DNA of 64,000 nt. Source: Candidatus Hadarchaeota archaeon. GTDB lineage: Archaea > Hadarchaeota > Hadarchaeia > Hadarchaeales > Hadarchaeaceae. Below the pieces are notes generated by a model. It saw only the letters and a list, made by a program, of their open reading frames with translations. It searched no databases and was not told the origin of the DNA. Below are positions 1-16,660 of this stretch, in pieces (the first letter of the stretch is position 1; the number at the start of each line of letters is the position of its first letter). The stretch covers positions 13,369-77,368 of the forward strand of contig CAZESD010000002.1 of the NCBI GenBank assembly GCA_964514945.1. Reading direction: 5' to 3'. A program made the position numbers and the translations under genes.

Positions 1-2
1 AG

Positions 3-230
3 GTGCTGCCGCAGAGGTCGAACTTTATTAACCGAGCGTTTGATTACGTTAAGGAGCGTGATTTCGTGACAGGAAAGATTGAGGACATGGTAGCTGATTT
101 GATCGCCGAACTCAGACATCGGCTCGATGAGCTCGAGTGCCGCGTTGCATCTCTTGAGCTATCACTCGGAAAGGTCAAGCCACCCAATCGTGCTGGCAAG
201 ATTGTTAAGTCAAAGCGCCACAGCAGATGA
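3..230 (+). CDS. Hypothetical coiled-coil protein; the 5' end is cut off by the window edge
   Basis: ORF open from the window start; charged coiled-coil-like C-terminus (ELRHRLDELECRVASLELSL); its stop overlaps the start of the next ORF by 4 nt, consistent with an operon joined to the ATPase fragment. Confidence 0.3.
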   Translation: MLPQRSNFINRAFDYVKERDFVTGKIEDMVADLIAELRHRLDELECRVASLELSLGKVKPPNRAGKIVKSKRHSR

Positions 231-1405
231 TAATTATGGCGCTTCGGACCTATCGTTCCGGCCCACTCCAAGTTGCAGAAATCGAGTGTTATGGGTGTGA
301 AGGGCTGAGTTCACTCGAAGATAAGCGTTGTCGCGCCTGTGTGCTCGAGCAGCTCGGTGCGCAAAACTTGGTGGACCAAGTTACCCTTCGCCGGGCCTAT
401 AAACGGGTGTACTGTTCGAGCGAACTCTCAAAACTCGCCAGAACCCTAGCTGTGCTTAAGCAGCTCATTTTCGACCGTGCATCCTATGCGGTGAGTGAGA
501 AAGGTAAGTGCAAAGGTTGCGTGGATAAACGATGCAGAGAATTGACCGAACGATGGGAAAAACTTCTAGAAGCACCGCACGATTTTTCACCGACTGAGGA
601 ATTGGCGAAAAAATACAGTAGGCTCAAAGGAGAATGCGCAAAATGTACCGAGCGTTATTTCCTAAAACTCCTCGCGAGCGCAAAGACAGGGCTGGTGGGC
701 ATTACAGCCATCCAAAACGCTAACGGAATGAATTACGACGAGGTTTTTGCGGCGCGGGTGATGCCGTTTTTCGTCGAGGGGATTTGTCATCCGCCAAGGC
801 ACAGGTTAAAACTGCTTGAAACTTATGAGTTAGCCGAGCGGCGAGGCATCGTGCGGATTTATGAACAGCTCGATCGTCCGCTACCGTTTTACCAGCTTGA
901 TCTTCCAGAGCTCAAGATGCCCGCTGAGCACCTTCAGTTGCTGGATGATGCATATAAATTTGAGACGACGGCCAAGCCGGGACACGCCCGTTTTGCTTTC
1001 CCAACACGAATCTCGGGGTTCCTCGACGATTGGTACAATGTTTTGCTACACATCCTTCGGGAGCGCTCGGATATCAATATCCCCTCGAGTGAGCTTAGGG
1101 AACTGGCCAAACAGATGTCTGGCTGGCTTACCTACCGGTGGCTTGAACCCCTCAGTTACGATGACAAACTCACCGACATTTACATCCCCGCACCGCCCGA
1201 GCTTCAGCCTATTCGAGTCGTCCACGAACGTTGGGATATGTGCGAGACTGGTATCCATTGGACGACGCCGGCTCTGTTGGGATTTGGGGAAACTCTCGCT
1301 TCCCGCCTCGCGACATCGTTCGATGAAGTTCGCCCGCAGCTGGACATTGAAATTCCCGAGCTTGGAATGCGATTGTTTTTGAGTCGTTACCCGGCGGTAA
1401 AGTAA
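227..1405 (+). pseudogene. N-terminal fragment of a FlaI/TadA(CpaF)-like type IV pilus/secretion ATPase, cut off by an insertion
   Basis: The C-terminal third matches the conserved N-domain layout of archaeal FlaI/TadA ATPases (FYQLDLPELKMPAEHLQLL.., LTDIYI..IRVVHERW, PQLDIEIPELGMRLFL compared with PILDGRLPDGSRLQAT). It ends exactly where the linker to the Walker A region should begin. A continuation in the same frame is found at 27169 on the far side of a 25.8-kb insertion. The Cys-rich N-terminus (several CxxC pairs) may be an extra Zn module. Confidence 0.7.
1387..1396. repeat. Left copy of the 10-bp direct repeat TTACCCGGCG (candidate attL core or target-site duplication)
   Basis: An identical 10-mer is present at 27183..27192. 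Both copies encode Y-P-A in the ATPase reading frame (SRYPAVK* on the left, IYYPAIWS on the right). Confidence 0.7.
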
Positions 1406-1637
1406 CCACTTGTGAGAATTTGTACGCGGCTAAAGGATTACGAGGCCGTAAAGCTCTCAAGTGCAAGTATTACAAAAGAGGTTCAAAGGATCCATCGCGA
1501 CCTCACCTTCCCATGGAGAAAAGCATGCATAGACCTGAATTCTCACCAAATTCGGAAGAGGTCAAGTTTTCCAATAATCTGTTAGATGATAGAAAGCCAA
1601 AATTTATACGATATGAAAGCCAAGCAAACAGAAAGGG

Positions 1638-2348
1638 ATGAAAATGGGAATTCCTGAAATTTTGATGTGGTTAATTTTTGGAGCTATTATCGGTTTCGTG
1701 CTGCAAAATATACTATTTGAACTATTTGCTGGTCCAGAATTGCGATTCAAAATAAAGTATTACAGAAAAAAGCTTGGTAAAAGAATTAGAAATCCTCATG
1801 TAAAAACAGTTCTTACGACTAAAACAGACGATTTAATAGATAAAAATTTAGATCTCAATGAAATTAGAGAATTAATCAAGAACGAGTTAAAAAACAAAGG
1901 TTTCGAAGTAGAGCCTCGAGGAGAAGATCTCAAATTTAATTTCACAACAGGCAAAACAGAAATAAACGCTGATGTCATGTTTGCTCCCGAAGTTGTGGAA
2001 GAGGGAAAGGTAATAACCTCCGAAGTAGAGGTGAATCTCACGGCCTCCTGTGGGTACAACAACTTTGAAGGCTATATTTTGGATTTGAAAAAAGGTGCAG
2101 AAATGATAGAGAAATGTCTAAGGAAGGTTATCAAAGACGTGGAATTTAAAGGAGGAAACTTGACTTGTGAGCTGAAAAACCTATATGAATTAACAGGGAT
2201 CTTATCCGGACTTGAGTTAAGCTCCCTTGCGGCGAAAATTGGAAATCGGTACTCGATTGACTTGTTTAAAAATAGAATAATAACTTATGGTGACATAGAC
2301 CAAAATGTTACATCAATATTGCGAAAGATAATTACAGTATATCTCTAG
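1638..2348 (+). CDS. Hypothetical membrane-anchored protein (one N-terminal transmembrane helix plus a soluble domain)
   Basis: N-terminal hydrophobic helix IPEILMWLIFGAIIGFVL; AT-rich coding sequence; no recognisable motif. Confidence 0.5.
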   Translation: MKMGIPEILMWLIFGAIIGFVLQNILFELFAGPELRFKIKYYRKKLGKRIRNPHVKTVLTTKTDDLIDKNLDLNEIRELIKNELKNKGFEVEPRGEDLKFNFTTGKTEINADVMFAPEVVEEGKVITSEVEVNLTASCGYNNFEGYILDLKKGAEMIEKCLRKVIKDVEFKGGNLTCELKNLYELTGILSGLELSSLAAKIGNRYSIDLFKNRIITYGDIDQNVTSILRKIITVYL

Positions 2349-2353
2349 TAGTT

Positions 2354-3037
2354 TTACACCAATGGAAGAATATTATTTTTCACGAATTGCAATATCTCTT
2401 CCTCGCTCATTGCAGAAATAAATGCAATTCCCCCCGTTTGGCTTAGTCGAACCGTCAAGCCATTTTCTCTTAATGTTACCATGACCGAACTCTTGTGTCC
2501 GTGATCATCATATCTCTTATGATCAGGCGATCTCGATAAGTTTGTACCTCCCAAAGCGGCTTTTGAAATACCTGGAATATTGAGGTCAGACCAGTTACAA
2601 TGTCTCAGTACATGCGGGTTTTGACGCAGGAACATCTCAATCATCTTTGTCGAAAATGGTTGTTTGAGAATAATGTCAGCTTTAAAAAATGCTTTATTCA
2701 TTTTTGTTGCCGCGTTTTCTGCATCCCATCTACTAGCTAATAGAATGAAAAAAAGTGAACTGCCTAAAGTAAAAACGAACTTGACTTTAACTGCCTCTTT
2801 AACATAGTTTACCCCACCGTCTGTCTGCAAAATTGCCCGGGAGACCTCATAGATAATCGATCCATGAAGATCCTTTTCTTTCATAACGAGATCATCAATA
2901 ATAGTGAGTAATTCCAGATCCTCCTCATTCATTTTAACTTTAAATTTGTCGATTATCCTTTTCTCTTTCAGTTTCCTTTGCAGTTCTTTTAACGGGATGA
3001 CTTTTTCCAATCTAAATAATCTGCATGGGACAATCAT
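2354..3037 (-). CDS. Hypothetical protein
   Basis: Long ORF in an AT-rich cargo block; no recognisable motif. Confidence 0.45.
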   Translation of the reverse strand: MIVPCRLFRLEKVIPLKELQRKLKEKRIIDKFKVKMNEEDLELLTIIDDLVMKEKDLHGSIIYEVSRAILQTDGGVNYVKEAVKVKFVFTLGSSLFFILLASRWDAENAATKMNKAFFKADIILKQPFSTKMIEMFLRQNPHVLRHCNWSDLNIPGISKAALGGTNLSRSPDHKRYDDHGHKSSVMVTLRENGLTVRLSQTGGIAFISAMSEEEILQFVKNNILPLV

Positions 3038-3701
3038 CTTATGCCCCTTTTTCTTTCTTCACTGCACTTATAAACCTAAGTTTCTGGTTAAAAATAGAGC
3101 GTTGAATTCTGTTTCAGATTTTGTTTTAATAAACAATTAGAGTACTAAAATTATCTGACGGCCTACAATAAGGAAGGGCTTATTAACTAGTCCAAGCCTA
3201 AGCGATTACTTTTTCTTTAGATTTACTGCACATTTTCCGATGTACGAACGAACTGAAGGAGATGGGAGAAATTGGATGTGACAAACGGGAATAACTTCGA
3301 TGTTGTAAACCTTTTTGACTATTTCATTTACTGTTCTCGTTACACCCTCTTCCCTTCCGTAATCATCAAACACAACTACCGTTCATTTGTGCATAAATTT
3401 CTGAACGTGCAGATTATACTAACCTCTTTCTTTTCAAACTACGTGGTGCGTTCCTCGCTTCTCGCACAGTCGGCACGGCACGGCGGGCGAGGGCTTTGAG
3501 CTGTTTAAATATGGGTTCTGCCATTTTCCCCTCAAATTAACCATAATAGGCTGTCACCAGATTAATAAAGTTTTTATATGAAGGTTCTGCTGCGTATTAG
3601 GGACTTTTAGCATTTTTAGCCCTCGGTGGTGCAATTCGGGACTTGGATGCACGTGGCCGAGAACGGTGCCTCAAGCCACGTGCTGAATGCTAATTTGCAT
3701 C

Positions 3702-5456
3702 TCACGGTTTTGAGCCCGATGCTGAACGAGGCTGGGGATAAACATTCGGGAACTCGGAGTAGTAATCTAAAACGTTAAAGAATATCGGCTCGCCAGAAAT
3801 CGAAAGCGGAGAAATGGGTCCGTACACCATGAAGGGATACTGCTTTCCCCCCATTGTGAGTAATGTCGCGGGATCCCTGAAGCTCTGGTAGAGATCCAAG
3901 TATCCTCCTCCCCCTATCAGCTCTCGTATTGCTCTGAGTTCCCCTCCCCAAGAGAGCCCGTAACCAAAAAAACATATACGCATCTGTTTCAGTACCTCTA
4001 TATCCAGGCCCGCGATGGATGTGCTGATGAAAAGCCACCCAAATCCGTACTTTCTCGTTTCTCTGACGGCCGTCGTAAGCGTCCCCTTGAGATTCTTGAA
4101 ATCTTCGTCCACGGGCCTCTCTGAGGGAATGAATCTATGGGCCTCGTCCACCATCACGAGTAGGTTAAGCAACTCCCTCTCTCGGTACAGGGTCTCCGCG
4201 GCATCCCTCAGTTTTGCGAAGATTTCGTTCAGGACTATCGCCATGACTTCTGGACTCCAGAAGATTCCAGCGGCAGCGGTCTCCGAGAGGTCTATGATCA
4301 CGACGCACTTTTGCTTGCATATTTTCTGGATTAGATCATCAATCCTGACCTTTTGCGGAGCGACAACGAAAAGATCGGTGACAGACCTCCAGATGCTATA
4401 AAGATTTTGTCTCCTGTTAGCGATACAATTTCTAACCCGCATCTGTCCATCCGAACCCACATAGATTCTCTCCACATTCTGGTCGAGGTAATTCATGAGC
4501 TGGTCAAAAGCAGCTTGATGATTTATTGGAACAAAACCCTGTAGAGTGGAAACTCCGTGGGTCATTGGCGGGCGGGCAGACGGTTGTGTCAGAAACGACT
4601 CAATCAGGTAGAGCGCGTTTAACTGGTTTTCCTCCGCCACGACGCCGAGTTCGTGAAGGAACCTTGACCGGAGGAGGATTCGCTGAAGACTCGTGGGACT
4701 GGAAAGGCAGATGTCGCAGACCCTGTACACCTCGGGGGTTCTTCCTACTTGGCTCAGGAGCTTCACCAGATGCTCTTTATTCCTGACCTCGCTGGAGTAC
4801 TCACCGACAGGATCCAGCGCGAGGATTGACATCTGTGGGAACTTGGTGTAAATCGCAAGGAGCATCCTGGCCAAATAAGACTTTCCGGACCCAGTTTTTC
4901 CGAAGACCCCGATGTGGTACCCCTCCCCCAGTCCGCCGTTTTTCCCGAAGTGTTTGAAAAACATTGGAAGGAATATATCCGTGTTGTACAACTTCCCGAC
5001 ATAAGAAATGTCGGTCTGCGCCTTCACGAGTTCGTCCACGATCTCTTGGTTGAGGAGGAAGATTTTCGTCCCCGTTGGAGGAACTGAACCCAATGCGACG
5101 GGCAGTATCTTCCCCTTGTCCCAGGAATAGACCGATCCGACTGAGATCTCCATCCCCCTTACATCATGTTGCTCGGTCAACGGCGGCGCGCGCCCACGAA
5201 AGCTTGTGATCTTGCGAACCGAGTGTCGCTCGATGTACGGGTTCTCGAGCGAGATGGACACCACTTGCCCCATGGCGTAAACGGGCTTTCCATCTTGCCT
5301 GGATTCGGTGATACAGAAGTTTCCAACTATCCCCTTCTCGTATGCACCCTCGATTAAATCAGCGACCAGAGAGTGGCTGGATGACGGGGATCCAACGACG
5401 CCTATCCATTCCCCGCGCTGGACCTTACCGCCGAGCTCGTCCTGTTTTTCACTCAC
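3702..5456 (-). CDS. herA: HerA-like (DUF87/FtsK-HerA superfamily) hexameric ATPase/helicase
   Basis: Walker A GVFGKTGSGKSYLARML; Walker B/DEAH-like box LLVMVDEAHRF; an N-terminal region before the P-loop as in HerA HAS-barrel proteins; 4-nt start/stop overlap (ATGA) with the upstream NurA-like gene. Confidence 0.85.
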   Translation of the reverse strand: MSEKQDELGGKVQRGEWIGVVGSPSSSHSLVADLIEGAYEKGIVGNFCITESRQDGKPVYAMGQVVSISLENPYIERHSVRKITSFRGRAPPLTEQHDVRGMEISVGSVYSWDKGKILPVALGSVPPTGTKIFLLNQEIVDELVKAQTDISYVGKLYNTDIFLPMFFKHFGKNGGLGEGYHIGVFGKTGSGKSYLARMLLAIYTKFPQMSILALDPVGEYSSEVRNKEHLVKLLSQVGRTPEVYRVCDICLSSPTSLQRILLRSRFLHELGVVAEENQLNALYLIESFLTQPSARPPMTHGVSTLQGFVPINHQAAFDQLMNYLDQNVERIYVGSDGQMRVRNCIANRRQNLYSIWRSVTDLFVVAPQKVRIDDLIQKICKQKCVVIIDLSETAAAGIFWSPEVMAIVLNEIFAKLRDAAETLYRERELLNLLVMVDEAHRFIPSERPVDEDFKNLKGTLTTAVRETRKYGFGWLFISTSIAGLDIEVLKQMRICFFGYGLSWGGELRAIRELIGGGGYLDLYQSFRDPATLLTMGGKQYPFMVYGPISPLSISGEPIFFNVLDYYSEFPNVYPQPRSASGSKP

Positions 5457-6616
5457 TCGAATCCCCCCTCAGTTCTGTAGTCGTGAGATGCTAAAAAAAC
5501 ATCGACTGGAACACCGACTACTCGGTCCACATCGTTCAAAGCTGCCTCCCGGAGCTCGGCGAGGGCGAAGTACGCGTGCTTGACGAACTGGTCCGCGATG
5601 TAGAGAGGATACGGTTCGAAAATGCCGGGGATTCCGGATTGATCCATCAAAGCTTCTAGCAGCACCGCGACCCTGCGTTCGTCTTGGGCCACGTTCTCTG
5701 CTACCTCGAGTCTGAGCGCCGGGTGGGCTGGGGACACCTTGAAATAGAAAACTTGTAACTCCCACAGCGCATCGATTATCTTTTTTCTCAACCTAACGAA
5801 TACCTGATCGCTTTCCATTTCTCCGAGTGTGAGGTGCCAGCGGTCCTCCGGGCGGCTGAGCTTCACGGGTCCTACCACATCGCCGGGTTTCAGGGCTATC
5901 GACAGCAGTCCCTTATCGTCTATCCCCTTGAGGACTGCGTGGTTCATGTCTTCCTTTACCAGCAGTGAAAGAATCTCGCTCCGAGTGGTGTACTTCGGCA
6001 CGCCGACGTACATGATGTCGGTCCTTGGAGAAGTGAGGACCTTGAGGTAGTTCTCCAGCGTTGTTTTTTGTCTTGAAACGAACTCATTTTTGAGTTTTTC
6101 TGGGGCATGGCTGACCGCGCGAAATCCCTGTCCAATTTTTATAAGCTGGGTTGTGAGCGAGCCGTCCAAAAAAACGACACGATGGGGGGCGCTCGTGGCG
6201 AGATTAAGCTCGTAAGAAAACATAAGGGCACTACACACGGGTAGCGTTTCGGGTTTGTGCTCGACAGGAAAAATGCGGACGATGTGGTGCGGTTTCTCCC
6301 ACCGTCTGGTTTCTTTTGGTGGGACAAGTCCCTCAACCGCGACACCTGCAATTCCAGTCGTGTCCAGCGAGAGTTGTCGAATGACCGCATAGGTTCCATC
6401 CACACCAACGGTTGTCGGGTAGCTCTTTTGTCTCAACAACTCGTTCACATTTCTTAACTGCCCGAGCTCGATGAGCTTTTCCCTCACGGGGGTTTTTATG
6501 TTCTCTATCTCTCGTAACCTGTCACTCACACTTTGAACAACTTCGCCGTGTTTTTGGAGCATCTCGTCCACCATCGACTCAGGGAGAAAATCTAGTGGAC
6601 TTTCGTACTTCTTCAT
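5453..6616 (-). CDS. nurA: NurA-like 5'-3' nuclease, partner of HerA
   Basis: NurA signature motifs VGVDGTYAV (motif I, xDGS/T) and VVFLDGSL. It is translationally coupled to herA. I prefer the start at 6616 (MKKYESPL) over the track start at 6703 because 6703 would overlap the upstream gene by 85 nt. Confidence 0.7.
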   Translation of the reverse strand: MKKYESPLDFLPESMVDEMLQKHGEVVQSVSDRLREIENIKTPVREKLIELGQLRNVNELLRQKSYPTTVGVDGTYAVIRQLSLDTTGIAGVAVEGLVPPKETRRWEKPHHIVRIFPVEHKPETLPVCSALMFSYELNLATSAPHRVVFLDGSLTTQLIKIGQGFRAVSHAPEKLKNEFVSRQKTTLENYLKVLTSPRTDIMYVGVPKYTTRSEILSLLVKEDMNHAVLKGIDDKGLLSIALKPGDVVGPVKLSRPEDRWHLTLGEMESDQVFVRLRKKIIDALWELQVFYFKVSPAHPALRLEVAENVAQDERRVAVLLEALMDQSGIPGIFEPYPLYIADQFVKHAYFALAELREAALNDVDRVVGVPVDVFLASHDYRTEGGFE

Positions 6617-6618
6617 GT

Positions 6619-7464
6619 TCAATGCCTCGGTGCCTCCAAAATTAACAGCTTCTTGCGACCCCGCTCTCTCGCCATGACTTTCCATCCCGCACGCTTGAAA
6701 CAAAAACCTGGATCTGTGCTTTTAATTGCTTTTGGGTTAACATATGTGAATAAGCGTTTCCCCGACCATTTCTTTATGGCTTGCTTCACAGCTTCTTTGA
6801 TTAAATCACTCGATAGTCCAGCCCCCTCGTTTCTGAACAGCGCACACTCTACTCCCTTCTGTCCATCCCAGCGGATTTTGTTCAATCTCCAGACGAACAG
6901 GGCTCGTTTGTCTGGAGTTATCAAGACCAGTTTTTCACCTGGACCGCAGAAAAACCTCGCGCCCCTAGTTTTTCTGGAGTAGTGATTATCAGCTAGTCTC
7001 TTGGCATCCAAGTTCGCATCATGGGTCACCATCCACACAACTTTTTCTTTGCCCCCATCATAGTCCTCGCTCCAGCGATTGAACTTTGTGAACCCACCAA
7101 GAGCCCGCATTACCGAGCGCGAGCTAATGCCAACGGTAGTGGCTATTTTCTCATACGTAAAACCTTTCTCACGCATAGAAATCATTTTCGCTAAATCTCT
7201 GCGCGAGAGCTTTACCGGTCTCCCCTGCTTTGAGTAGTCATAGATCACATCGACCCTTTTTTGAAAGAGGTAATCTAGTGCTCTCCTGCTTGCATTTTTT
7301 CTCGCCGTTCGTGTGAGAGTTACCCTCTCCAGATTCGGGCATCGCTTCAAGAGAAGCTTTACCGTGTTGCAAGTAAGATAATTAACAACATGAACTTTTT
7401 TGGCGCATCGTGGAAGTCCGTCTATATCCTCATTTTTTCTTACAATCAAAATATCAGCCCCCAA
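6619..7464 (-). CDS. Hypothetical protein with an internal helix-turn-helix, first gene ahead of nurA-herA in the same operon
   Basis: HTH-like stretch TYEKIATTVGISSRSVMRAL; stop 2 nt before the preferred NurA start; unknown C-terminal domain. Confidence 0.5.
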   Translation of the reverse strand: MGADILIVRKNEDIDGLPRCAKKVHVVNYLTCNTVKLLLKRCPNLERVTLTRTARKNASRRALDYLFQKRVDVIYDYSKQGRPVKLSRRDLAKMISMREKGFTYEKIATTVGISSRSVMRALGGFTKFNRWSEDYDGGKEKVVWMVTHDANLDAKRLADNHYSRKTRGARFFCGPGEKLVLITPDKRALFVWRLNKIRWDGQKGVECALFRNEGAGLSSDLIKEAVKQAIKKWSGKRLFTYVNPKAIKSTDPGFCFKRAGWKVMARERGRKKLLILEAPRH

Positions 7465-7486
7465 ATAGGTGACATTTTGTTGAATA

Positions 7487-7990
7487 TTAACATTTTGTCA
7501 CTCCCCTCGCTCGCAGATTTTCACTTAAATTTTCGTCATTCTGTCGCTCCTCCGTTTCAAGTCTTTTGATGGTTCTGGTCTCTCTCTTTATCTCTTTGGG
7601 TCTTGGCCTAAGCTTCTTGTCCATCCTCTCCTTGAAGCGAACACCGACAACTTCTCTTGTAATGCCTAGTTCATAAAGTTCTTGAGGACGAACACAACCT
7701 TGGCGCAAAATCACCTCTGGGATTTTTTCTGGACTGGAGAAAATGCGAACCTCTACAGCAACCTTCAAAACACTTGGACCCGAATATCCCCGTCTGAATT
7801 CGATTAAAAATTTTGAACCCGATCGAGCAAGATATTGCTTCCCAACTGGGCTTGCCGCACTCCGAAATTCCCAGATCTTTTTCCCTTGCGCGATAAGGTC
7901 AAACCACTTCTTTTTAAGCGGGCAAAAAACCCTTCGCCATTTCTTAACACTTCCCATGATCAGATCCCCAAAAACCATCCGACCACCCAC
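7487..7990 (-). CDS. ASCH (PUA-like) domain protein
   Basis: KKWFDLIAQGKKIWEFR matches the ASCH core (hP.K..yfd.I..G.Kt.E.R); the C-terminal tail is basic. Confidence 0.55.
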   Translation of the reverse strand: MGGRMVFGDLIMGSVKKWRRVFCPLKKKWFDLIAQGKKIWEFRSAASPVGKQYLARSGSKFLIEFRRGYSGPSVLKVAVEVRIFSSPEKIPEVILRQGCVRPQELYELGITREVVGVRFKERMDKKLRPRPKEIKRETRTIKRLETEERQNDENLSENLRARGVTKC

Positions 7991-8343
7991 CCGATCGCGA
8001 ACCAGTAGAGCATGTCTAGGTTAAGCAGGAAAGACGCTTTATATCCGACGCCCTCCGCCAAGCGCCCGTAAACTTTCCTCCAAAGATGCGGATCGCCTAG
8101 TGCAATCAGTGGGTAGAGGCAGAACACCAGAGGCACGACGATAACGAAGCCGAAGTAGCTGGCCGACGCCCCGACCACGAACGCTAGGCCGCACTCGGCA
8201 CGGGCCAGAAGCGAGTAGATTGTCAACCTCCGATTGCCCTTCTTTATCTTGTGTCTCATTCGGGCCATGAACTTAGCATAGCCTTCGTCGAACCTTCGGG
8301 CCAAGAAGTCGCCTGGGGTGAGGATTAGGCGCTTGACGTTCAT
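7960..8343 (-). CDS. Small membrane protein, the full-length member (copy 1) of a family that recurs in this window
   Basis: 127 aa with two hydrophobic segments. Paralogous sequence recurs at 14583, 18249, 19277 and 20594. Confidence 0.6.
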   Translation of the reverse strand: MNVKRLILTPGDFLARRFDEGYAKFMARMRHKIKKGNRRLTIYSLLARAECGLAFVVGASASYFGFVIVVPLVFCLYPLIALGDPHLWRKVYGRLAEGVGYKASFLLNLDMLYWFAIGWVVGWFLGI

Positions 8344-8679
8344 TCCATTTCATCCTATTAATCTAGAGCAGCACGAGTCGCATGTTGCTTTTAATGTGCA
8401 CTCATTCATGCGGAGGATTTTTAGCAATTCTCCCATCTCCGTTTGTCTGCTCAAGAAAAATAACATCTCCGAAAACTCTGCAAGTTTTATACGGGTGTGA
8501 GGAGGGTGGGAAGTTGAGTCTTCTTCAAATCTCGAAAGATACAATCGCTCTCGTCCTTTGCAATCCTCGTTTCGGCGTGGACTTTCTTCTCAGGGGAGAT
8601 TTTTTTGGCTTGCAAAATGGGCCCTTTAATTGGGAGCTTAATTAATGTGCAAAGCCGAGTTAGATTTGAGGCATGTAAA

Positions 8680-9510
8680 TTAACGATCTATCTGGCTGAA
8701 CTTGGAAATAAGTTGCTCGATGGTTAATAACTCAGTGCTTCTGAACTTCAGAGCATTGTCTGTTACATTTTGTACTTCGTGTAGTTTCACTATTTTTTCG
8801 TCGCTTGACCATACAACCACGTATAGCGGAACATTAAGACTCTGTCTAAGAATATCCAAAGGTTTCCACCTGTTTATGTCTTTGGAAAAGTAAAGATTCA
8901 GATCATGAGATTTCACTGGAAATTTGCGAGTTCTACTGAATTCGAAAATAGCTTCCACCTCCTTGGCTATTTTGTTCAAGAGAAACCCATCAAGGTTACC
9001 TGGCCAAGGGACGCCGTGCCGTCGTAGGCACTGGTCTATGGATGATAATCGACCTGGCTCAACGAAACCTTTAGAGACATGAATTCCCTTCAGGCTTGAC
9101 ATCCACTGTGCGAGATCTTCGCATGAGTTAAACAACTTTTTATTTACAACTACTATCTGTCCCTCGTCTTTAGCATCTACAGACAAAAGCCAAAAATTTT
9201 CCCCCCCATCTTGCCATAGCAGGAGATACAGCGGAACATTTAGAGACCTAGCCAGCACTATCCTAGCAAGCCAAGGATCTTTGTCTTCTTTTGTTTCAAA
9301 CCACTTACAGATCTGAAGTTCTGTCCATTCTCCAACTCTGATTGTGGATTTGCGCCTTTCGAATAATGCGGTGACAATGTTGCCCCTAACGGAGTAACCT
9401 TCTACAGGGTAAAGTGGAATGCCTTTTTTAAGAAGGGATTCATATACCCAATTTTTGGCTTCTGGTGTATCTATCCGTAATTCTGCTGCCATAATTTCCC
9501 CTCCATTCAC
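8680..9510 (-). CDS. Hypothetical protein made of two tandem copies of one homologous domain
   Basis: The block ARSLNVPLYLLLWQDGGENFWLLSVD in the first half matches LRQSLNVPLYVVVWSSDEKIVKLHEV in the second half. Confidence 0.5.
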   Translation of the reverse strand: MNGGEIMAAELRIDTPEAKNWVYESLLKKGIPLYPVEGYSVRGNIVTALFERRKSTIRVGEWTELQICKWFETKEDKDPWLARIVLARSLNVPLYLLLWQDGGENFWLLSVDAKDEGQIVVVNKKLFNSCEDLAQWMSSLKGIHVSKGFVEPGRLSSIDQCLRRHGVPWPGNLDGFLLNKIAKEVEAIFEFSRTRKFPVKSHDLNLYFSKDINRWKPLDILRQSLNVPLYVVVWSSDEKIVKLHEVQNVTDNALKFRSTELLTIEQLISKFSQIDR

Positions 9511-9648
9511 TCTCGATCCTCCTTTGTGAAAACCTATAGCTTTATGCGCGACTATTAATTTTTAACCCAATATCTCTCAATGGGGGTTGCTCCTAAAATA
9601 GCTTCTGCTCCCAAGGTACTTTTAATATGCGGGCAGAAAATCGATAGA

Positions 9649-12336
9649 TTACCTCAAACTCTCCTCAATAATTTTCTTTTCAGATTCAGTTATACCATAC
9701 AAACTATAGACCAATTCGTCTATCTCCGCGTCTGTTTTATTTATTTCTTCTTCTATTCTCTGTCTTTCGTCTGTTTTTTTGTCCCCGATTTCATTGAGGC
9801 GTTTGTTAAGAGAGAGCATTTTGTCCACGAGTTTGATAAGGGGTTGTTGTTGGGTTTCTGGAATTATTTTAATCGGTAGTTCATCTATTTGAGTCCCCCG
9901 CAAATCCAGATATCCACCACCGACATGGGTGGTGCCAAAATTTACTTTGTAATAAAAATCAATCACTTTTGAATTTAAGAGTGCAGTTAAAAATCTGAGA
10001 TTGATTTTTTGTTCTTTTTTTGGGATTAAATAGTAAATTCTATCCATTATGAAATTACCGCCGCCTTCATACGCTGCTTTAAGACTTAAAACTGTTCGTG
10101 GCATGAGCACTTTCTCTTTCGACAAAATTTTATTTTGTAGATCAGAAACAACAAAAACATCATCAGAAAGTTTAGGTAAATACCCGCTAACATTTCTAGA
10201 AACTATGCACTTGTGTGAGTTTTTTGTCTTTTCATTTAGTATTTTTATCTTATTTTTTGGTGAACCTCTACGGCATGTGAACAAATCTTTTACCCTAACA
10301 CTCTTTTTAACAAACTTCTCTATTAATTGAAATTTAATGTTTCCAATTTCTTCAAGAAATCTATTATCTCGACCTTCTAGAAACTTGGATTGTTTTATTT
10401 TTACTGTATTCTTATTAAAATGTAAATCTTCTATCTCATTTATTTTTTGAAATGTTATTAAATTGTTTTTTCTATTCATCTCATTACCCTCTTTTTGTAG
10501 GATTGTGATAACTGGATATGTCGATGCATCTTTGAAAATCCTCAAATGAGATACATCAATCAAAGAGATGATCTTGCAGTTTTCAAGAATTATATCCCTT
10601 AATTTTTGGCCGTAGTCACTCGCAATAAATTTGTTAGAAGTGATAAATCCCAAGTATCCATTATTTCTTAATAACTTCATCCCAATTTCAAAAAATAAGA
10701 TATAGATGTCGTATTGTTCGTAGGCACTTGAATATTTCTTAGCGTGAAACAGTTTATCTTTATTTGGAAGATCAGTATTTCTAATGTAAGGCGGATTTCC
10801 GATAACAACATCAAAACCGCCTTCGTCAATGATTTGTTTGAATTCCTTTTCCCATTTGAAAGCCTTATCTCCCGCGACTTTTTCATCGTCAATCAAAGAA
10901 TTACCGCATTTGATGTTTTGCTTTAGCAAGGGCAATCTGTATCCTTTTTCCGTAATTTTCAACAAAAGATTTAACTGTGCGATCTCTACTGCTTGCTTGT
11001 CTAAATCAACGCCGAAAATATTGTTCTTCAAAATTTCTACTTTTTTTGTAAATGTCGTTCCTGTCTCTACATCCAAGCGTGTTTGATTGTAATCTTTATC
11101 CTTCTTGCTGTGGTATTCATTCAAAACATCAAAAGCTTTTATCAAAAATGAACCGGAGCCACAAGCAGAATCCAAAACCCTAATTTTTTCGACATCCACT
11201 GTTTTGTCTTTAAGCAACTCACCTAAAGTATTTCTTACGATATAATCAACAATATAAGTGGGCGTGTAGTAAATTCCCTGCTCCTTGCGGCGGGCGTGCT
11301 TTTTCGCCAAGGTGGCCCGCTTTGCGGTCTTCTTTAGAATGTGGCCCAAGTACTGCTCGTAAACATTACCAAGAACATCAGCATCTAGTGCGGAAAAATC
11401 ATACTTTATTGTCCTATCCTTTGTGTGATCAAGACCGTTTATTATTTCTTCAAGAACCTCATTACTCACATCTAATTGGTCGCATAAGTGAGGTTTAAAC
11501 AGCTCACTATTGTATTCATCCCAAAAATGGCGGAAAACATCAACTATACGTTCAGCAAGAGTGCCTCTATGTTTACTTTCCCATATCCGTAGCACGGATA
11601 ACAATGTTTCTTCTTCTAGTTTTCTATCTTCACAGTTTCTAATGAAAATTAGTCTATCTATAATTCTCTGAACAGCCTCGTCCAACTCCGCCTCAGTGAG
11701 TCGTTTGTCTTTGTTTCTCGCTAGAATATCCTTAGAAAGCTTGGCTCGCCATATTGTCAAATCGTTAAGCAACTGTTCGCCCACAGAACTTTTCTTAGAT
11801 TTTTTGCCCCATTTCTCAGCTTCTTTATCCAATAAGCCCTGTTCAAAACTTTCTTTAGACAGAAGCCACAATTCCTCAAATCTGTCTAAAAACTCTTGGC
11901 GAGGGATAGTTATCGGACGACTTTGAGACGGGTCGGTGGTTTTCCACTCTGCATTAAATATTTTTACGCCTTGATCAAAATCGGTAAGAACGGCCCAAGT
12001 GCAGCCCTTATGCCAAGCGTAATTTATTGCTTGTTCTGCAAACCTAGGATCATCCAAGTCCTCTTTTAGTGCTTTTGCTTCGAGAAAGAATTTTGGGATT
12101 CCATTAATTCTAAAACTGTAGTCAACCCGACCCTTTGATATTGTTTCTTCTCTGGTAACTTCATCGGGATGTGTTTTATTACGAACATCCCAACCCAAAG
12201 CTTCAAACAAGGGTTCTATAAATTCAGCTTTGGTATCCGCCTCAGTATACTTGCCGAATCTTTTTTCTTCGACGACTTTGTCGTATTTCTCAAGAAGCTC
12301 CTTTATTTGCTGTTTGGCGTTTTCCTTGTTTACCAT
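9649..12336 (-). CDS. Type IIG/IIL restriction-modification enzyme of the MmeI family (endonuclease fused to an N6-adenine methyltransferase)
   Basis: N-terminal PD-(D/E)xK layout matching MmeI (RVDYSF..FFLEAKALKEDL); methyltransferase motif I VLDSACGSGSFL and motif IV VVIGNPPY; C-terminal region the size of a target-recognition domain; 895 aa. Confidence 0.85.
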   Translation of the reverse strand: MVNKENAKQQIKELLEKYDKVVEEKRFGKYTEADTKAEFIEPLFEALGWDVRNKTHPDEVTREETISKGRVDYSFRINGIPKFFLEAKALKEDLDDPRFAEQAINYAWHKGCTWAVLTDFDQGVKIFNAEWKTTDPSQSRPITIPRQEFLDRFEELWLLSKESFEQGLLDKEAEKWGKKSKKSSVGEQLLNDLTIWRAKLSKDILARNKDKRLTEAELDEAVQRIIDRLIFIRNCEDRKLEEETLLSVLRIWESKHRGTLAERIVDVFRHFWDEYNSELFKPHLCDQLDVSNEVLEEIINGLDHTKDRTIKYDFSALDADVLGNVYEQYLGHILKKTAKRATLAKKHARRKEQGIYYTPTYIVDYIVRNTLGELLKDKTVDVEKIRVLDSACGSGSFLIKAFDVLNEYHSKKDKDYNQTRLDVETGTTFTKKVEILKNNIFGVDLDKQAVEIAQLNLLLKITEKGYRLPLLKQNIKCGNSLIDDEKVAGDKAFKWEKEFKQIIDEGGFDVVIGNPPYIRNTDLPNKDKLFHAKKYSSAYEQYDIYILFFEIGMKLLRNNGYLGFITSNKFIASDYGQKLRDIILENCKIISLIDVSHLRIFKDASTYPVITILQKEGNEMNRKNNLITFQKINEIEDLHFNKNTVKIKQSKFLEGRDNRFLEEIGNIKFQLIEKFVKKSVRVKDLFTCRRGSPKNKIKILNEKTKNSHKCIVSRNVSGYLPKLSDDVFVVSDLQNKILSKEKVLMPRTVLSLKAAYEGGGNFIMDRIYYLIPKKEQKINLRFLTALLNSKVIDFYYKVNFGTTHVGGGYLDLRGTQIDELPIKIIPETQQQPLIKLVDKMLSLNKRLNEIGDKKTDERQRIEEEINKTDAEIDELVYSLYGITESEKKIIEESLR

Positions 12337-12454
12337 GATATCCCTAGAATATTTGGAATTTTTGGGTATTAAACTGCTCTATCTCGTGAGGTCTAATCAC
12401 CGAACGATTTTTTGCGCAGAAAACTAATTATAGCACAAAGCCTTAAATTAGGCT

Positions 12455-12748
12455 ATGAATAAGAAAGTAGAGAATGCCCGTCTAGTTGCCTTTCTGAATA
12501 ATTATGACTATTCTTTTTGGTATCATAAAATACTTTCATTAGACGAGATTTACAAGGATGAAAATTTCATCAATAAAGTTTTGAGCAAAATGACAGGTAC
12601 TGGTATCGTAGAAATAAGAAGAAGTATCGAATTCGAGATGTTTATGGCCAGTCAGCACCTTATCGAGACCCTATTTATGCTGATAGGAGCAGGACGAAAA
12701 ACTAAAAAAAGACGAGGGTTGGCGGAGCGCTTAATGAGGGGTTATTAG
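12455..12748 (+). CDS. Small hypothetical protein
   Basis: ORF only; lies between two minus-strand cargo genes. Confidence 0.3.
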   Translation: MNKKVENARLVAFLNNYDYSFWYHKILSLDEIYKDENFINKVLSKMTGTGIVEIRRSIEFEMFMASQHLIETLFMLIGAGRKTKKRRGLAERLMRGY

Positions 12749-12843
12749 TGGCACGTATGTGGTAAATAGGGCGACATGACCCGACACCTAGTACGTAAGA
12801 AAATCATACCGAGAACCTTGCCGTGCGGGCAGGGCAAACTGTC

Positions 12844-14232
12844 TCAAGTACTCCAAAAAAATCCCGGAACATAAACTTCTTCGTGGGATAATCCACCATG
12901 TGAGGATTTGAAATGCGTGAATCCTGAACGATAATTTGAGAGGTCTAAGCCTCCGAGGTAACAATTCTCGAAATGAACAACTACTTCCCCAATATGAAAA
13001 TCAGTCCCATAGGACTCACCAGTAATCTCTTCAGTCGCGAATCGTTCAAGTGTTCCAGGCTTAAGCGTTTTCCATTTTTCACCTGCCCAATCATAGCCGT
13101 AAAAACCTGAGCCTTCCTTTTTCACCCGTACAAGTGCAGGTTCGATGTCAGATTTCATTATCAAGGGATGTAAATCCTCAGAATAAAGATTGAGAATAGT
13201 TTGATTCGTTGCATAAAATTTGTAGTTCTTACCTAGGTACTTTTTAAATTTAGGAAAGGGAACAAAACCTTCTGGAACAGGTTTGTGGCCATGATCAGAA
13301 ACAATGAAGGAAAGGGTCTGACCGGAGCCAGATTCTTTGAGTTTACTATCTAAGCTAATTATGTATTGAAAGATTTTGCACAATTCGGATGTGACTATAG
13401 GGTTATCCGCTCCGTACATGTGAGCTAGGTAATCAATTGTGAATCGAACGAAGAGAAGCCAAAACTTCTTTGTCTCGTTTCTCTTGATGTATTTCTCTGC
13501 TTCTTGGGATGTCTCTAGGTTACCTGTGGTTTTTACATAAGTTTCTCTAAATAATTCACTCCCAAAAAAGTAATCTAAGAAACGACGTCCTTCGCTTTGG
13601 CTGTGGGATTTTCCTGCGGTGATAAATCCCAATGCACCGTCTTTATCCATCAATGAGGAGAGCAGGAAATAGGTCGTGATGGGAACCACGCTGGGTAAAA
13701 GCAGCTTTGTATTGTCCGATAGGTTTGGTTTAACGTTGAATCTTTCCCCAGTGTCTACGTCCCAGAACCTATCTGCGAAAACTTTGTGCTCTATTGGGAA
13801 CGCACCTGTGAATAATGATGTTGTAGCTACTGTGGTCATCGATGGGAACGTTGTAAACATTGAAGCTATCTCAGGCTTTATTTTTTCGAAGAAGGGTTTA
13901 CCTGATTTGAAAAATGTGGTAAAGCCCATGCCATCTATCAGGTAAATGATAATGTGATTGAATGATTCTAAATTCACATGAAGTCGGTCCTCGATCACAT
14001 CTTCCAAGCTTGCTCCGCAGTATCCCAGGCGTTGAATGTCATAAAGCGTGTTTATCTTAATATCGGTACCTAACACTCCTGCCTCGAGTCTTCTCTTTGG
14101 AGGACCCTCCCTTTTTTCTAAATACCGCAATAAAGTAGGGGCTATATCGACAATCGAAAACTCGCCCTCGTCCAAATCACGAATTCGTGTGCATATCTTT
14201 AGGCCATGCTTTGTGTTTTCAACGGCTGTCAT
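12844..14232 (-). CDS. Alkaline-phosphatase-superfamily protein (type I phosphodiesterase / nucleotide pyrophosphatase-like; PglZ-like fold)
   Basis: Metal-ligand and nucleophile block IIIYLIDGMGFTTF...PSMTTVATTSLFTG, FIVSDHGH and C-terminal SHGGLSHEEVYVP are all typical of the AP/NPP clan; there is an extra N-terminal domain of ~90 aa. Confidence 0.7.
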   Translation of the reverse strand: MTAVENTKHGLKICTRIRDLDEGEFSIVDIAPTLLRYLEKREGPPKRRLEAGVLGTDIKINTLYDIQRLGYCGASLEDVIEDRLHVNLESFNHIIIYLIDGMGFTTFFKSGKPFFEKIKPEIASMFTTFPSMTTVATTSLFTGAFPIEHKVFADRFWDVDTGERFNVKPNLSDNTKLLLPSVVPITTYFLLSSLMDKDGALGFITAGKSHSQSEGRRFLDYFFGSELFRETYVKTTGNLETSQEAEKYIKRNETKKFWLLFVRFTIDYLAHMYGADNPIVTSELCKIFQYIISLDSKLKESGSGQTLSFIVSDHGHKPVPEGFVPFPKFKKYLGKNYKFYATNQTILNLYSEDLHPLIMKSDIEPALVRVKKEGSGFYGYDWAGEKWKTLKPGTLERFATEEITGESYGTDFHIGEVVVHFENCYLGGLDLSNYRSGFTHFKSSHGGLSHEEVYVPGFFWST

Positions 14233-14299
14233 TCATAAATTCTATTCTTTCCTCTCCTTTAAACAATTCTTTCCTGCCCAGTCATATTTTGAAACCTTT

Positions 14300-14356
14300 G
14301 CGCGTGGTCGGGAGGTGAGTAAGTGAAGGGATTTTCACTTAAGCCCGGCCACGCGC
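14300..14356. repeat. Nested inverted repeat (13-bp outer stem around a 7-bp inner stem) in the divergent intergenic region
   Basis: Outer stem GCGCGTGGTCGGG...CCCGGCCACGCGC with one mismatch; inner stem AAGTGAA...TTCACTT. Confidence 0.5.
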
Positions 14357-14582
14357 GGCCCGCAACCACTAACTTCCAGTTCTTGTGGAGGCTGAAAGCT
14401 TGGAGGCCGCGGATTGCCGATAAACGGTTTGGGGGCGGATAAAAAAGGGCTTCGGTTTTGGGACGTCCAGCGAGGGTTAGAGAAGTGATTTCATCGGAAA
14501 GATTGAGGTCAAACCGATGACTCACGCCCCGCCGAACGCCGAAAGTGATTTTGGGCGCGGGGATAAAAGCTGTTGCGATCGG

Positions 14583-14880
14583 ATGAACGTCAAGCGCCTA
14601 ATCTTCACCCCCGGCGACTCCCTGGCCCGGAGGTTCGACGAGGGATATACCAAGTTCATGGCCCGAATGAGGCGCAAGATGAAGAATGGCAATCGGAGGT
14701 TGGCGATCTACTCGCTTCTTGCTAGGGCGGAGTGCGGGCTTGCTTTCGTGGTCGGGGCTTCGGCGAGCTACTTCGGCTTCGTCATCGTGGTGTCTCTGGT
14801 GCTCTGCCTCTACCCGCTGATTGCTCTCGGTGACCCTTTCTTATGGCGCAGGACATACGGGCGCTTGGTGCGAGGCATCG
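14583..14880 (+). pseudogene. Small-membrane-protein family copy 2: the 5' part is intact and fused to an unrelated GC-rich tail
   Basis: MNVKRLIFTPGDSLARRFDEGYTKFMARM...YGRLVRG lines up with copy 1 up to about 14880, after which homology is lost. The ORF in the track runs on to 15065 through sequence of atypical composition. Confidence 0.5.
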
Positions 14881-15175
14881 ACCCGTCCCTGCCACATGTT
14901 CGCTTGTCGGCGCGATCTTCAACGCCGCCGATGCCTTTCGCCGCTCCCCTCTCTGCGTCCGCTGGTGCGGCCGGATGGATAACCTCACCCAAAAGCTTGC
15001 GCTCTCGGGAAACCGCACCAGCGGATTGCGCGAGCATTTCGGGAGTGAAGGCCATTCCTCCTTGACCTTCTTCGGCATTTTAACCTTGGTGGCGGACTGG
15101 AACCCGAATTATGCGACTGGCTGCACATCGGACGGGATCTCAGCATCTCGCCAGCACTCTCCCGCCAGCCCACTC

Positions 15176-15330
15176 TCGCCATCTCCTACTCACCTTCGAG
15201 GTACTTCCTCACCTTCCGCTGGCGCAGCACGTGCCTTCGGAGCATCGCCTTCCGCCTGCGCACCATCAAGAGCGCGTATCCGGCCGCCCCGACCGCGAGC
15301 ACTCCGACCCCGAGCTCGACCATCATCTCA
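15176..15330 (-). CDS. Small protein with one transmembrane helix (46 aa; translated by hand, below the track's length cutoff)
   Basis: MMVELGVGVLAVGAAGYALLMVRRRKAMLRRHVLRQRKVRKYLEGE; it is a tandem paralog of the gene just upstream. Confidence 0.35.
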
Positions 15331-15549: not shown

Positions 15550-15571
15550 TCAAGCGTCTTGTGGTCTATCC

Positions 15572-15871: not shown

Positions 15872-15974
15872 TTTTCCAGCAGACTATTCGTGTATCTAAT
15901 TGATACACAAACATACTCTATATTACCCATCACCCTTTAAAGGGATGCCTAACAAGATACACGGATGATACATT

Positions 15975-16166: not shown

Positions 16167-16227
16167 GGCCCCCCAGCCACGATTTTCTGTTCTCCATCAG
16201 TCACACGCCGAACAGTTCCGCGGTGCC

Positions 16228-16587: not shown

Positions 16588-16660
16588 GGCACTTTAGGGA
16601 AACGTCGCCCTAGAGAGACGTTATCCCAAACTAAAAATAACGGAGATCCAAAGTAAAATT

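What the first reader, a model, noticed from the sequence alone, without database searches (positions are those of the whole stretch)
3702..6616. A HerA-NurA operon is carried as cargo of the integrated element and is separate from the host mre11-rad50
In many archaea herA and nurA sit with mre11-rad50. Here mre11-rad50 lies at 38.7-42.4 kb in the host region, next to rfcL. The HerA-like ATPase (Walker A GKTGSGKS, Walker B VMVDEAHRF) and the NurA-like nuclease (VGVDGT, FLDGSL) are translationally coupled and lie inside the inserted element. This suggests a mobile or defence-associated HerA/NurA module rather than the housekeeping end-resection machinery. HerA-like ATPases have been described in prokaryotic antiphage systems, but those with a NurA partner are poorly characterised.
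Basis: partly seen in the sequence, partly recalled or inferred. Interest (0 to 1): 0.7.

Follow-up and report, generated by a model that had tools for sequence, protein, structure and literature searches.

The report
Mobile GNAT–NurA–HerA nuclease cassette
A Hadesarchaeon carries, in a variable integrase-bearing island, a three-gene cassette (DNA-binding acyltransferase-like protein, NurA-like nuclease, HerA-like motor ATPase) from a widely transferred family that is usually linked to the phage-defence marker DruA, so it is probably a conflict or defence device and not the cell's ordinary DNA-break repair machinery.

Summary
A 387-aa NurA-like gene (5453-6616, -) overlaps by 4 nt a 584-aa HerA-like gene (3702-5456, -). 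mre11-rad50 sits apart at 38.7-42.4 kb, next to rfcL.

The reading as non-housekeeping and mobile is supported.
- Both proteins are far from the canonical orthologs. HerA scores 16-25 bits against NCBIfam cut-offs of 800-970. NurA is recognisable mainly by fold.
- Window 1-29876 is missing from a sister Hadesarchaeon contig that is 93% identical from glnA onwards.
- The island holds three tyrosine recombinases and a type IIG R-M gene.

An HTH plus GNAT-fold protein (6619-7464) ends 2 nt before nurA. These three genes, and only these, recur in at least three other unrelated contexts.

The wider family is a fixed NurA-then-HerA pair (78 of 80 genome loci), patchy across Archaea and Bacteria. In 35 of 54 fully flanked loci it is joined to DruA/DUF4338, which one comparative study classes as GNAT-like. 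Neighbours often include R-M, DruE and Hma genes.

Best explanation: an ATP-driven DNA-degrading effector controlled by, or paired with, a GNAT enzyme. Function is untested. I could not check for a canonical herA-nurA elsewhere in the genome.

The parts
3702..5456 (-). HerA-like hexameric-type P-loop ATPase (584 aa, GTG start), distal gene of the cassette
   Evidence: Pfam DUF87 E 2e-12. Walker A/B and candidate Arg finger conserved. Partial matches to PADLOC HerA models. The profile hits solved HerAs (9c1m, 8wiv, 8wet TdpA, 8xau, 4d2i) only over about 120 C-terminal residues. Far below the NCBIfam HerA cut-offs.
5453..6616 (-). NurA-like RNase H-fold nuclease (387 aa, ATG start); its stop overlaps the HerA start by 4 nt
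   Evidence: Pfam NurA E 8.1e-7. AF2 model pLDDT 88; Foldseek best hits are NurA 2ygk, 9x1m_G and 3taz. D73/E136/D151/D342 invariant in 44 homologs. No PADLOC model matches.
6619..7464 (-). Third cassette gene: DUF1699_N plus HTH_7 DNA-binding N-terminal half and GNAT-fold C-terminal domain (residues about 144-277). The public gene call is 276 aa, about 5 codons shorter.
1..29876 (.). Variable island (context). It has no counterpart in sister contig L085. The left border lies beyond the window; the right border is near 29.9-31.1 kb.
   Evidence: blastn of L085 against the window: 93% identity from 31114 onwards, 82% at 29877-30193, nothing before that. Mosaic GC. No tRNA gene.
22545..27168 (+). 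Three tyrosine recombinase (integrase) genes of the island: 22545-23117 (truncated), 23597-24982, 25738-27168 (context)
   Evidence: Pfam Phage_integrase E 1.7e-25, 1.1e-31 and 1.7e-11.
9649..12336 (-). Type IIG restriction-modification enzyme, a neighbouring defence gene on the same strand (context)
   Evidence: Pfam Eco57I 8.8e-49 with N6_Mtase, TaqI_C and HSDR_N. PADLOC REase_MTase_IIG 5.9e-135.
38750..42437 (+). Host mre11 (38750-40051) and rad50 (39861-42437), unlinked to the cassette (comparison)
   Evidence: Pfam Metallophos; SMC_N, AAA_23 and Rad50 zinc hook. Syntenic and 93% identical in L085/L086.

Best explanation
The locus is a self-contained three-gene cassette, HTH-GNAT then NurA-like nuclease then HerA-like ATPase. 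It was acquired horizontally and sits in an integrase-bearing variable island of a Hadesarchaeon.

Proposed mechanism, by analogy with canonical HerA-NurA, whose structures and biochemistry are known: a HerA hexamer bound to a NurA dimer loads on a DNA end, pumps the duplex with ATP, and feeds both strands to the two NurA active sites, destroying linear DNA.

In this cassette the machine most likely works in genetic conflict, degrading incoming or replicating foreign DNA for the host or for the element that carries it. The GNAT-fold partner has its own DNA-binding domain. It most likely either marks self DNA or a protein, or gates the nuclease.

Shown here: gene structure, folds, intact catalytic motifs, mobility of the cassette, and its link to GNAT-type genes and to defence genes.

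Inferred: formation of the complex, DNA degradation, the target, and the role of the GNAT protein.
For: Anatomy:
- Overlapping or abutting genes.
- NurA fold with an invariant D/E/D/D set.
- HerA Walker A/B and Arg intact.
- GNAT fold with a cofactor-loop motif.

Not housekeeping:
- NCBIfam HerA equivalogs score 16-25 bits against cut-offs of 800-970.
- No relative of the window's Mre11, and only three weak Rad50-like matches, in 80 related loci.
- Absent from the syntenic site of a sister genome at 93% identity.
- Singleton 90% clusters, against 16-37 members for core genes.
- A relative in Thermococcus barophilus MP; Thermococcales are known from the literature to carry the canonical herA-mre11-rad50-nurA operon.

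Mobile cassette:
- Exactly these three genes are shared with L081-083, where a terminase, Dam and GIY-YIG lie nearby.
- The same cassette occurs in Hadarchaeales L095-097 with a DEAD helicase and a STAND NTPase, and in L099-100 with BglII R-M, ParB and an integrase.
- Identities are discordant between the GNAT gene and NurA-HerA.
- The HerA tree mixes Archaea and Bacteria.
- Seven IMG/VR contigs and eight plasmids carry relatives.

Defence link:
- NurA-HerA is adjacent in 78 of 80 loci.
- DruA is adjacent in 35 of 54 fully flanked loci and in 5 of 7 viral loci.
- Neighbours include DruE, Hma, type I, II and III R-M, and AriA-like genes.
- A type IIG R-M gene lies 2.2 kb away in the window.

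Literature:
- Canonical HerA-NurA digests both strands, and a defence role has been proposed for it (PMC12977600).
- DUF4338 is described as GNAT-like, and HerA/FtsK 'capture' defence systems are described (PMC10853773).
- GNAT has been proposed as a DNA modifier in HerA-linked BRC systems (PMC12839542).
Against: - No experiment exists for any member of this family.
- No PADLOC model matches the NurA, and HerA matches are only partial.
- About a third of the loci have no GNAT-type gene.
- A Nitrososphaeraceae clade shows conserved synteny with ordinary genes, which looks vertical.
- Many neighbours in other genomes are housekeeping genes, and I did not compute a formal enrichment statistic.
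- The GNAT fold match is generic, and its resemblance to Mom is no better than to ordinary acetyltransferases.
- hhalign finds no link between this GNAT and DruA.
- The rest of this genome could not be searched for a canonical herA-nurA.
Confidence: 0.6

Rival explanations
1. The cassette serves the mobile element or virus itself. It would process the element's own DNA ends for recombination-dependent replication, integration, excision or packaging, or degrade host or competitor DNA, and would not defend the host.
For: - It sits in an integrase-bearing island.
- The close relative L081 has a terminase large subunit 8 kb away.
- L099 has ParB-like genes and an integrase.
- Seven IMG/VR contigs carry DruA-NurA-HerA.
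- The GNAT domain belongs to a phage protein family, phrog_24928.
- HerA-like ATPases are common in archaeal 'dark matter' islands and have been read as viral pumps (PMC4158269).
Against: - Only 7 of 2.9 million viral contigs and no deposited phage record carry it, against at least 450 matching stretches in species genomes.
- Most loci show no MGE hallmark next to the module.
- L081 already has a terminase for packaging.
- The same cassette occurs with unrelated backbones, as expected for cargo and not for a core replication module.
Confidence: 0.17
2. It is the organism's working DNA end-resection machinery. A divergent HerA-NurA would cooperate in trans with the unlinked Mre11-Rad50, as in mesophilic archaea where the four genes are not clustered.
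For: - Same two folds and the same gene pairing as canonical HerA-NurA.
- No other HerA or NurA in the 64-kb window.
- Some lineages (Nitrososphaeraceae, Methanoculleus) keep the pair in stable contexts.
- Genome annotations name relatives 'DNA double-strand break repair nuclease NurA'.
Against: - Absent from the matching region of a sister contig and from the 90% clusters that hold the sister genomes' core proteins.
- Far below the equivalog cut-offs.
- Occurs as an extra copy in Thermococcus.
- Tied to DruA or GNAT genes and shuffled between unrelated contexts.
Confidence: 0.12
3. It is a decaying, non-functional remnant of transferred DNA.
For: - One integrase in the island is truncated.
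- The island is mosaic in GC.
- The predicted sensor-1 position of HerA is T, where most relatives have Q.
Against: - All three ORFs are full length with preserved overlaps.
- Every invariant catalytic residue is kept.
- The T variant is shared by the four closest relatives in the alignment, so it is a clade trait.
Confidence: 0.04

Closest known systems
Canonical archaeal HerA-NurA end-resection complex (S. solfataricus 2ygk/4d2i; P. furiosus 3tal; T. kodakarensis 9x1l-9x1p)
   Same: A NurA RNase H-fold nuclease paired with a HerA/FtsK-type ATPase, encoded by adjacent co-directional genes. Catalytic motifs are intact. The predicted NurA structure matches these NurAs best.
   Different: - 10-13% identity to solved NurAs, and no sequence-level hit.
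- HerA is far below the equivalog cut-offs.
- Not linked to mre11-rad50.
- Linked instead to a GNAT-type gene.
- Horizontally mobile.
DruA/DUF4338, signature gene of Druantia type I (DruABCDE)
   Same: In most relatives of this cassette a bona fide DruA (Pfam PF14236 down to 7e-134; PADLOC DruA1) sits in the same operon as NurA-HerA. DruA is described as GNAT-like (PMC10853773), the fold found here for the window's partner gene.
   Different: - The window has no DruA.
- Its GNAT is not detectably homologous to DruA.
- No DruB, C or D family appeared among the neighbour families listed, and DruE is nearby in only 4 of 80 loci.
TdpABC phosphorothioate-based system (TdpA 8wet)
   Same: Per the citing paper it is a restriction-modification-like system with a single modification gene, tdpC (PMC12914056). 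From my recollection of An et al. 2025, which was not readable here, TdpA is a HerA-type hexamer working with the nuclease TdpB. TdpA is the best single-sequence PDB hit for the window HerA (E 2.6e-6).
   Different: - Similarity is limited to about 100 residues of the ATPase core and is no better than to other HerAs.
- No TdpB appears among the NurA-model fold hits.
- The partner here is a GNAT.
- No dnd or ssp genes were seen among the ORFs scanned.
Sir2-HerA and DUF4297-HerA antiphage systems; DndH and other 'HerA/FtsK capture' systems; BRC systems with HerA/FtsK plus GNAT plus TGT
   Same: A HerA-family ATPase coupled to an effector, in defence contexts. A GNAT has been proposed as a DNA-modifying component in BRC (PMC12839542). 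Partial PADLOC and PDB HerA matches.
   Different: The effector here is NurA, not Sir2, DUF4297, a REase or PglZ. There is no full-length match to any of those HerA models. It is a compact three-gene unit.
Bacterial NurA-HerA of Deinococcus/Thermus
   Same: A NurA-HerA pair outside thermophilic archaea, not linked to mre11-rad50.
   Different: Its solved chains did not appear among the sequence or fold hits. The relationship was not otherwise tested.

Membership tests
Canonical HerA-NurA DSB end-resection pair | HerA/FtsK-class ATPase with Walker A, Walker B and Arg finger | tested here: met
   Pfam DUF87 2e-12. K192/S193, D437/E438 and R468 conserved.
Canonical HerA-NurA DSB end-resection pair | NurA RNase H-like fold with acidic metal-binding residues | tested here: met
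   Foldseek best hits are NurA 2ygk, 9x1m_G and 3taz. D73/E136/D151/D342 are invariant and lie on or next to beta1, alpha1, beta4 and a C-terminal helix of the model.
Canonical HerA-NurA DSB end-resection pair | Orthology to characterised HerA (NCBIfam equivalog cut-offs) | tested here: not met
   NF040937 scores 25.3 bits against 800; NF040819 scores 16.5 against 970.
Canonical HerA-NurA DSB end-resection pair | Genomic linkage with mre11-rad50 (typical of thermophiles) | tested here: not met
   32 kb apart in the window. No relative of the window's Mre11, and only three weak Rad50-like matches, in 80 related loci.
Canonical HerA-NurA DSB end-resection pair | Vertical inheritance: orthologs at the same place in sister genomes | tested here: not met
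   The region is absent from L085. Singleton 90% clusters against 16-37 members for core proteins.
Canonical HerA-NurA DSB end-resection pair | HerA6-NurA2 complex with ATP-dependent nuclease activity | not testable with these tools
   Needs biochemistry or a multimer structure prediction.
Druantia type I | DruA (DUF4338) present | tested here: not met
   A DruA HMM finds nothing in the 64-kb window. Pfam and PADLOC give no DruA hit.
Druantia type I | DruE helicase and DruB, C, D present | tested here: not met
   No PADLOC Dru hits among the ten ORFs scanned, 1638-14232.
   4-nt overlap in the window. Same order in 78 of 80 loci.
Known HerA-based antiphage systems (Sir2-HerA, DUF4297-HerA, TdpAB) | Cognate effector or partner (Sir2, DUF4297, TdpB/TdpC) and a full-length match to that system's HerA | tested here: not met
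   PADLOC HerA hits are partial, 60 bits or less. NCBIfam HerA_antiphage scores 25.5 against 800. No such partner gene was found.
Integrated mobile element or genomic island | Integrase genes, and absence from the syntenic site of a close relative | tested here: met
   Three Phage_integrase genes. L085 comparison.
Integrated mobile element or genomic island | Both borders with att-type direct repeats | tested here: inconclusive
   The left border is outside the window. No flanking repeat or tRNA gene was found.

The most novel reading that the evidence does not exclude
GNAT-NurA-HerA, including the widespread DruA-NurA-HerA form, is an undescribed restriction-modification-like immune system. 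The GNAT enzyme would acylate host DNA (or a DNA-bound protein) as a self mark, in the manner of phage Mu Mom or of TdpC for TdpAB. The HerA-NurA motor-nuclease would then shred DNA that lacks the mark. Stand-alone phage copies of the same GNAT (phrog_24928) would be counter-defence, like orphan methylases. This would also suggest a role for DruA, whose function in Druantia type I I believe to be unknown (my own recollection, not checked here).
Probability: 0.15. Interest if true: 0.85.

Novelty: new variant of a known kind. Interest (0 to 1): 0.6.

Why it matters
HerA-NurA is textbook archaeal repair machinery, and a recent T. kodakarensis study suggests it may also destroy foreign DNA.

This locus shows that a divergent HerA-NurA pair travels as a compact cassette with a GNAT-type partner across Archaea and Bacteria. 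The NurA-like family has 673 clusters at 50% identity, and at least 450 matching stretches were found in a collection of one genome per species. It often lies among defence genes and is most often fused into an operon with DruA.

I found no description of this triad in PADLOC-DB 2.0 or in the searchable literature.

It gives a directly testable candidate system in bacteria with genetic tools, for example the DruA-NurA-HerA of Chloroflexus, Thermanaerothrix or Syntrophorhabdus, which could be expressed in E. coli. It also offers a possible handle on what DruA does.

For genome annotation, it warns that 'NurA' or 'DUF87' hits in archaeal MAGs should not be counted as recombination-repair capacity.

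Tried and rejected
- Exact-protein look-ups of the window's own HerA and NurA, P0001, P0140, P0183 (T. barophilus) and P0269 found no record. I therefore could not read the source contig (147,737 bp) beyond the window or the Thermococcus context.
- The Tdp paper (An et al. 2025) is not held. Statements about TdpA/B rest on a citing paper and on my own recollection.
- Sequence searches of the NurA, alone or as a profile, against the PDB found nothing. Only the fold search worked.
- A possible fourth gene (a 372-aa ORF upstream in both L081 and L099) proved to be coincidence.
- The ASCH lead (weak Pfam hit in 7487-7990; ASCH gene in L081) did not hold up.
- No match in deposited phage genomes, no Rfam family, and no tRNA gene that could mark an att site.
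- The afdb50 fold library was unavailable. The viral fold search gave only weak generic GNAT hits.
- The alkaline-phosphatase-like neighbour has no PglZ hit by PADLOC and no PDB match.
- The genome-contig scan did not return the source genome itself, so I could not check for a canonical herA-nurA elsewhere in it.
Full report
**Observation.**
Two minus-strand ORFs lie at the stated coordinates.
- The distal ORF (3702-5456, 584 aa, GTG start) matches the HerA central domain (Pfam DUF87, E 2e-12). It carries GKTGSGKS and LLVMVDEAHRF.
- The proximal ORF, read from the ATG at 6616 (387 aa), matches Pfam NurA above the curated cut-off (29.2 against 21 bits).
- The nurA stop and the herA start overlap as GTGA, and a purine-rich GAGGGGGG lies just upstream.
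- Public gene calls give identical products (P0001, P0140).
- The family HMMs and a strict Walker A scan find no further HerA or NurA in the window.

**Organism and island.**
GlnA, Mre11 and RFC-L fall in 90%-identity clusters with proteins named Hadesarchaea/Hadarchaeaceae, for example DG-33. The source contig is 147,737 bp.

A sister contig (L085, 120 kb) is 93% identical to window 31114-41506, covering glnA through rfcL, mre11 and rad50. It has a weaker match (82%) to 29877-30193. Nothing from window 1-29876 occurs in the 9.6 kb that precede glnA there; L085 instead has moaC, moeA and nop5-fibrillarin.

The non-syntenic stretch holds three tyrosine recombinase genes, a type IIG R-M enzyme and many ORFs with no family match. 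GC ranges from 0.36 to 0.57 against 0.51 for the host part. The left border is outside the window, and I found no att repeat or tRNA gene.

Core proteins have 16-37 near-identical cluster mates. The three cassette proteins have 1-2, and the next closest HerA is 77% identical.

**A third gene.**
ORF 6619-7464 stops 2 nt before the nurA ATG.
- Its N-terminal half gives weak DUF1699_N/HTH_7 matches, below the Pfam cut-offs.
- Its C-terminal half matches phrog_24928 at 4e-35.
- With 47 homologs the AlphaFold model reaches pLDDT 90.
- The nearly invariant F-R-N-E-G-A-G fits the GNAT Q/RxxGxG/A cofactor loop.

tblastx shows that the window shares exactly these three genes, and nothing else, with metagenomic contigs L081-083 (HerA 76%, NurA 71%, GNAT protein 59%). 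In those contigs a terminase, a Dam methylase, and GIY-YIG, MORC-like and ASCH genes lie nearby.

The same cassette occurs in two further settings:
- A Hadarchaeales genome, behind a DEAD-box helicase gene and facing a STAND NTPase (L095-097).
- With a stand-alone 154-aa GNAT overlapping nurA, next to a BglII-type R-M pair, ParB-like genes and an integrase (L099-100).

Identities are discordant. Window against L096 gives GNAT 71%, NurA 54%, HerA 50%. This indicates recombination between the GNAT gene and NurA-HerA.

**The wider family.**
A scan of one genome per species returned at least 450 confirmed HerA relatives, of which 80 loci were kept.
- In 78 of these a NurA-like gene lies directly upstream on the same strand. 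The other two are cut by contig ends.
- None has a relative of the window's Mre11, and only three have weak Rad50-like matches.
- Clustering of all flanking ORFs revealed one further conserved gene. By Pfam (down to 7e-134) and PADLOC it is DruA/DUF4338.
- With HMMs it is found in 46 of 80 loci, in 35 of 54 loci with full flanks, and in 5 of 7 IMG/VR contigs. It is nearly always in the same operon.
- DruA is frequent in Bacteria (31 of 41 loci) and less so in Archaea (7 of 39) by the first, BLAST-based count.
- Other neighbours are highly variable: 147 Pfam families in 130 proteins, none in more than four. They include DruE, Hma, type I, II and III R-M, and AriA-like genes.
- A neighbour-joining tree of HerA interleaves bacterial and archaeal taxa.
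- The NurA-like family has 673 representatives at 50% identity among 1.84 billion proteins.
- A Nitrososphaeraceae clade keeps the pair in conserved synteny without a GNAT gene. Not every member need be mobile or defensive.

**Relation to known proteins.**
- The HerA profile matches solved HerAs of defence systems (9c1m, 8wiv, 8wet TdpA, 8xau) and S. solfataricus HerA about equally, and only over the C-terminal ATPase core.
- NCBIfam equivalogs for repair HerA and for antiphage HerA are all missed by more than 750 bits.
- The NurA profile finds no solved chain by sequence. The model (pLDDT 88) matches the NurA structures first and Argonaute PIWI domains far behind.
- D73, E136, D151 and D342 are invariant and fall where an RNase H-like active site expects them.
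- PADLOC has no model for this NurA.
- hhalign does not connect the window's GNAT with DruA. DUF4338 has, however, been described as GNAT-like (PMC10853773).

**Mechanism.**
The fold and motif results justify carrying over the mechanism of canonical HerA-NurA: a hexameric pump and a dimeric nuclease that thread a duplex from an end. The 2026 T. kodakarensis work shows both strands are digested, and its authors raise a defence role (PMC12977600).

The evidence favours a conflict or defence role, to which I assign about 0.6. That evidence is the cassette's mobility, its independence from mre11-rad50, its absence from a sister genome, its link with DruA or GNAT genes, and its frequent defence neighbours.

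The GNAT partner could be a self-marking modifier, a regulator or a sensor, and nothing here decides between these. Comparable ideas exist for HerA/FtsK 'capture' systems and for GNAT/TGT in BRC systems. For Tdp, one gene makes the modification.

**Rivals.**
- Use by the element itself, about 0.17.
- True housekeeping resection, about 0.12.
- Decay, about 0.04.

**Novelty.**
HerA-based defence and HerA-NurA repair are both known, so this is a new variant and not a new kind. I found no paper linking DruA or a GNAT with NurA-HerA, and no PADLOC system covers it. The library is incomplete, however, and newer defence catalogues could not be consulted.

Noticed in passing
window 7975-8160, 18267-18452, 19298-19483 (- strand): Three 80-84% identical copies of a roughly 186-nt coding stretch. 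Many differences look synonymous by eye (not tallied), so the island carries three paralogous genes for a small hydrophobic, probably membrane, protein. One copy lies in ORF 7960-8343, two genes upstream of the cassette.
   Followed up: partly
window 9649-14232 (- strand): A type IIG R-M enzyme (895 aa) is followed by an alkaline-phosphatase-superfamily protein (Pfam Phosphodiest 2.8e-18) with no PglZ, PADLOC or PDB match. This is the lowest GC of the window (0.36-0.41). A 57%-identical IIG N-terminus lies 9.4 kb from DruA-NurA-HerA in L035.
   Followed up: partly
window 22545-27168: Three tyrosine recombinase genes in a row. The first is truncated (190 aa), and a 62-nt stretch is repeated 120 nt further on (85% identity) inside the second gene (23752-23933). 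This suggests nested or successive integrations.
   Followed up: no
window 28215-31113; L085 9661-9987: The last ~100 codons of the 660-aa ORF 28215-30197 match (82% nt) a free-standing 93-aa gene of the sister contig. The window also has about 920 extra bp just upstream of glnA. This may be the island's right junction, or a gene fusion created by insertion.
   Followed up: partly
window about 32552; L085 11426-12418: The cation-efflux gene that follows glnA in the sister contig is missing from the window. This is a small deletion in the otherwise collinear host block.
   Followed up: no
L005, L006 (Methanoculleus), L025, L038: A full-length DruE helicase (PADLOC E down to 3e-179) lies beside NurA-HerA, with or without DruA. 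Some loci may therefore combine Druantia parts with this module.
   Followed up: partly
L049-L078 (Nitrososphaeraceae clade): About ten related loci share conserved flanking genes, without DruA or GNAT. One is an unannotated 163-aa ORF just downstream of HerA (eight loci). In this lineage the pair looks vertically inherited and might have a cellular role.
   Followed up: partly
window 7487-7990 (-); L081 7583-7921: Weak ASCH-like signal (Pfam E 0.02) in the ORF just upstream of the cassette. A clear ASCH gene lies two genes upstream of the cassette in L081, but the two proteins do not align. ASCH domains are described as binding modified DNA (PMC10853773), so this might relate to the GNAT. The evidence is thin.
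   Followed up: partly
L094 (IMG/VR contig), 7920-8420: A stand-alone copy of the window-type GNAT domain (48% identity) sits on a predicted viral contig without NurA-HerA. This is consistent with phrog_24928 being a phage family.
   Followed up: no
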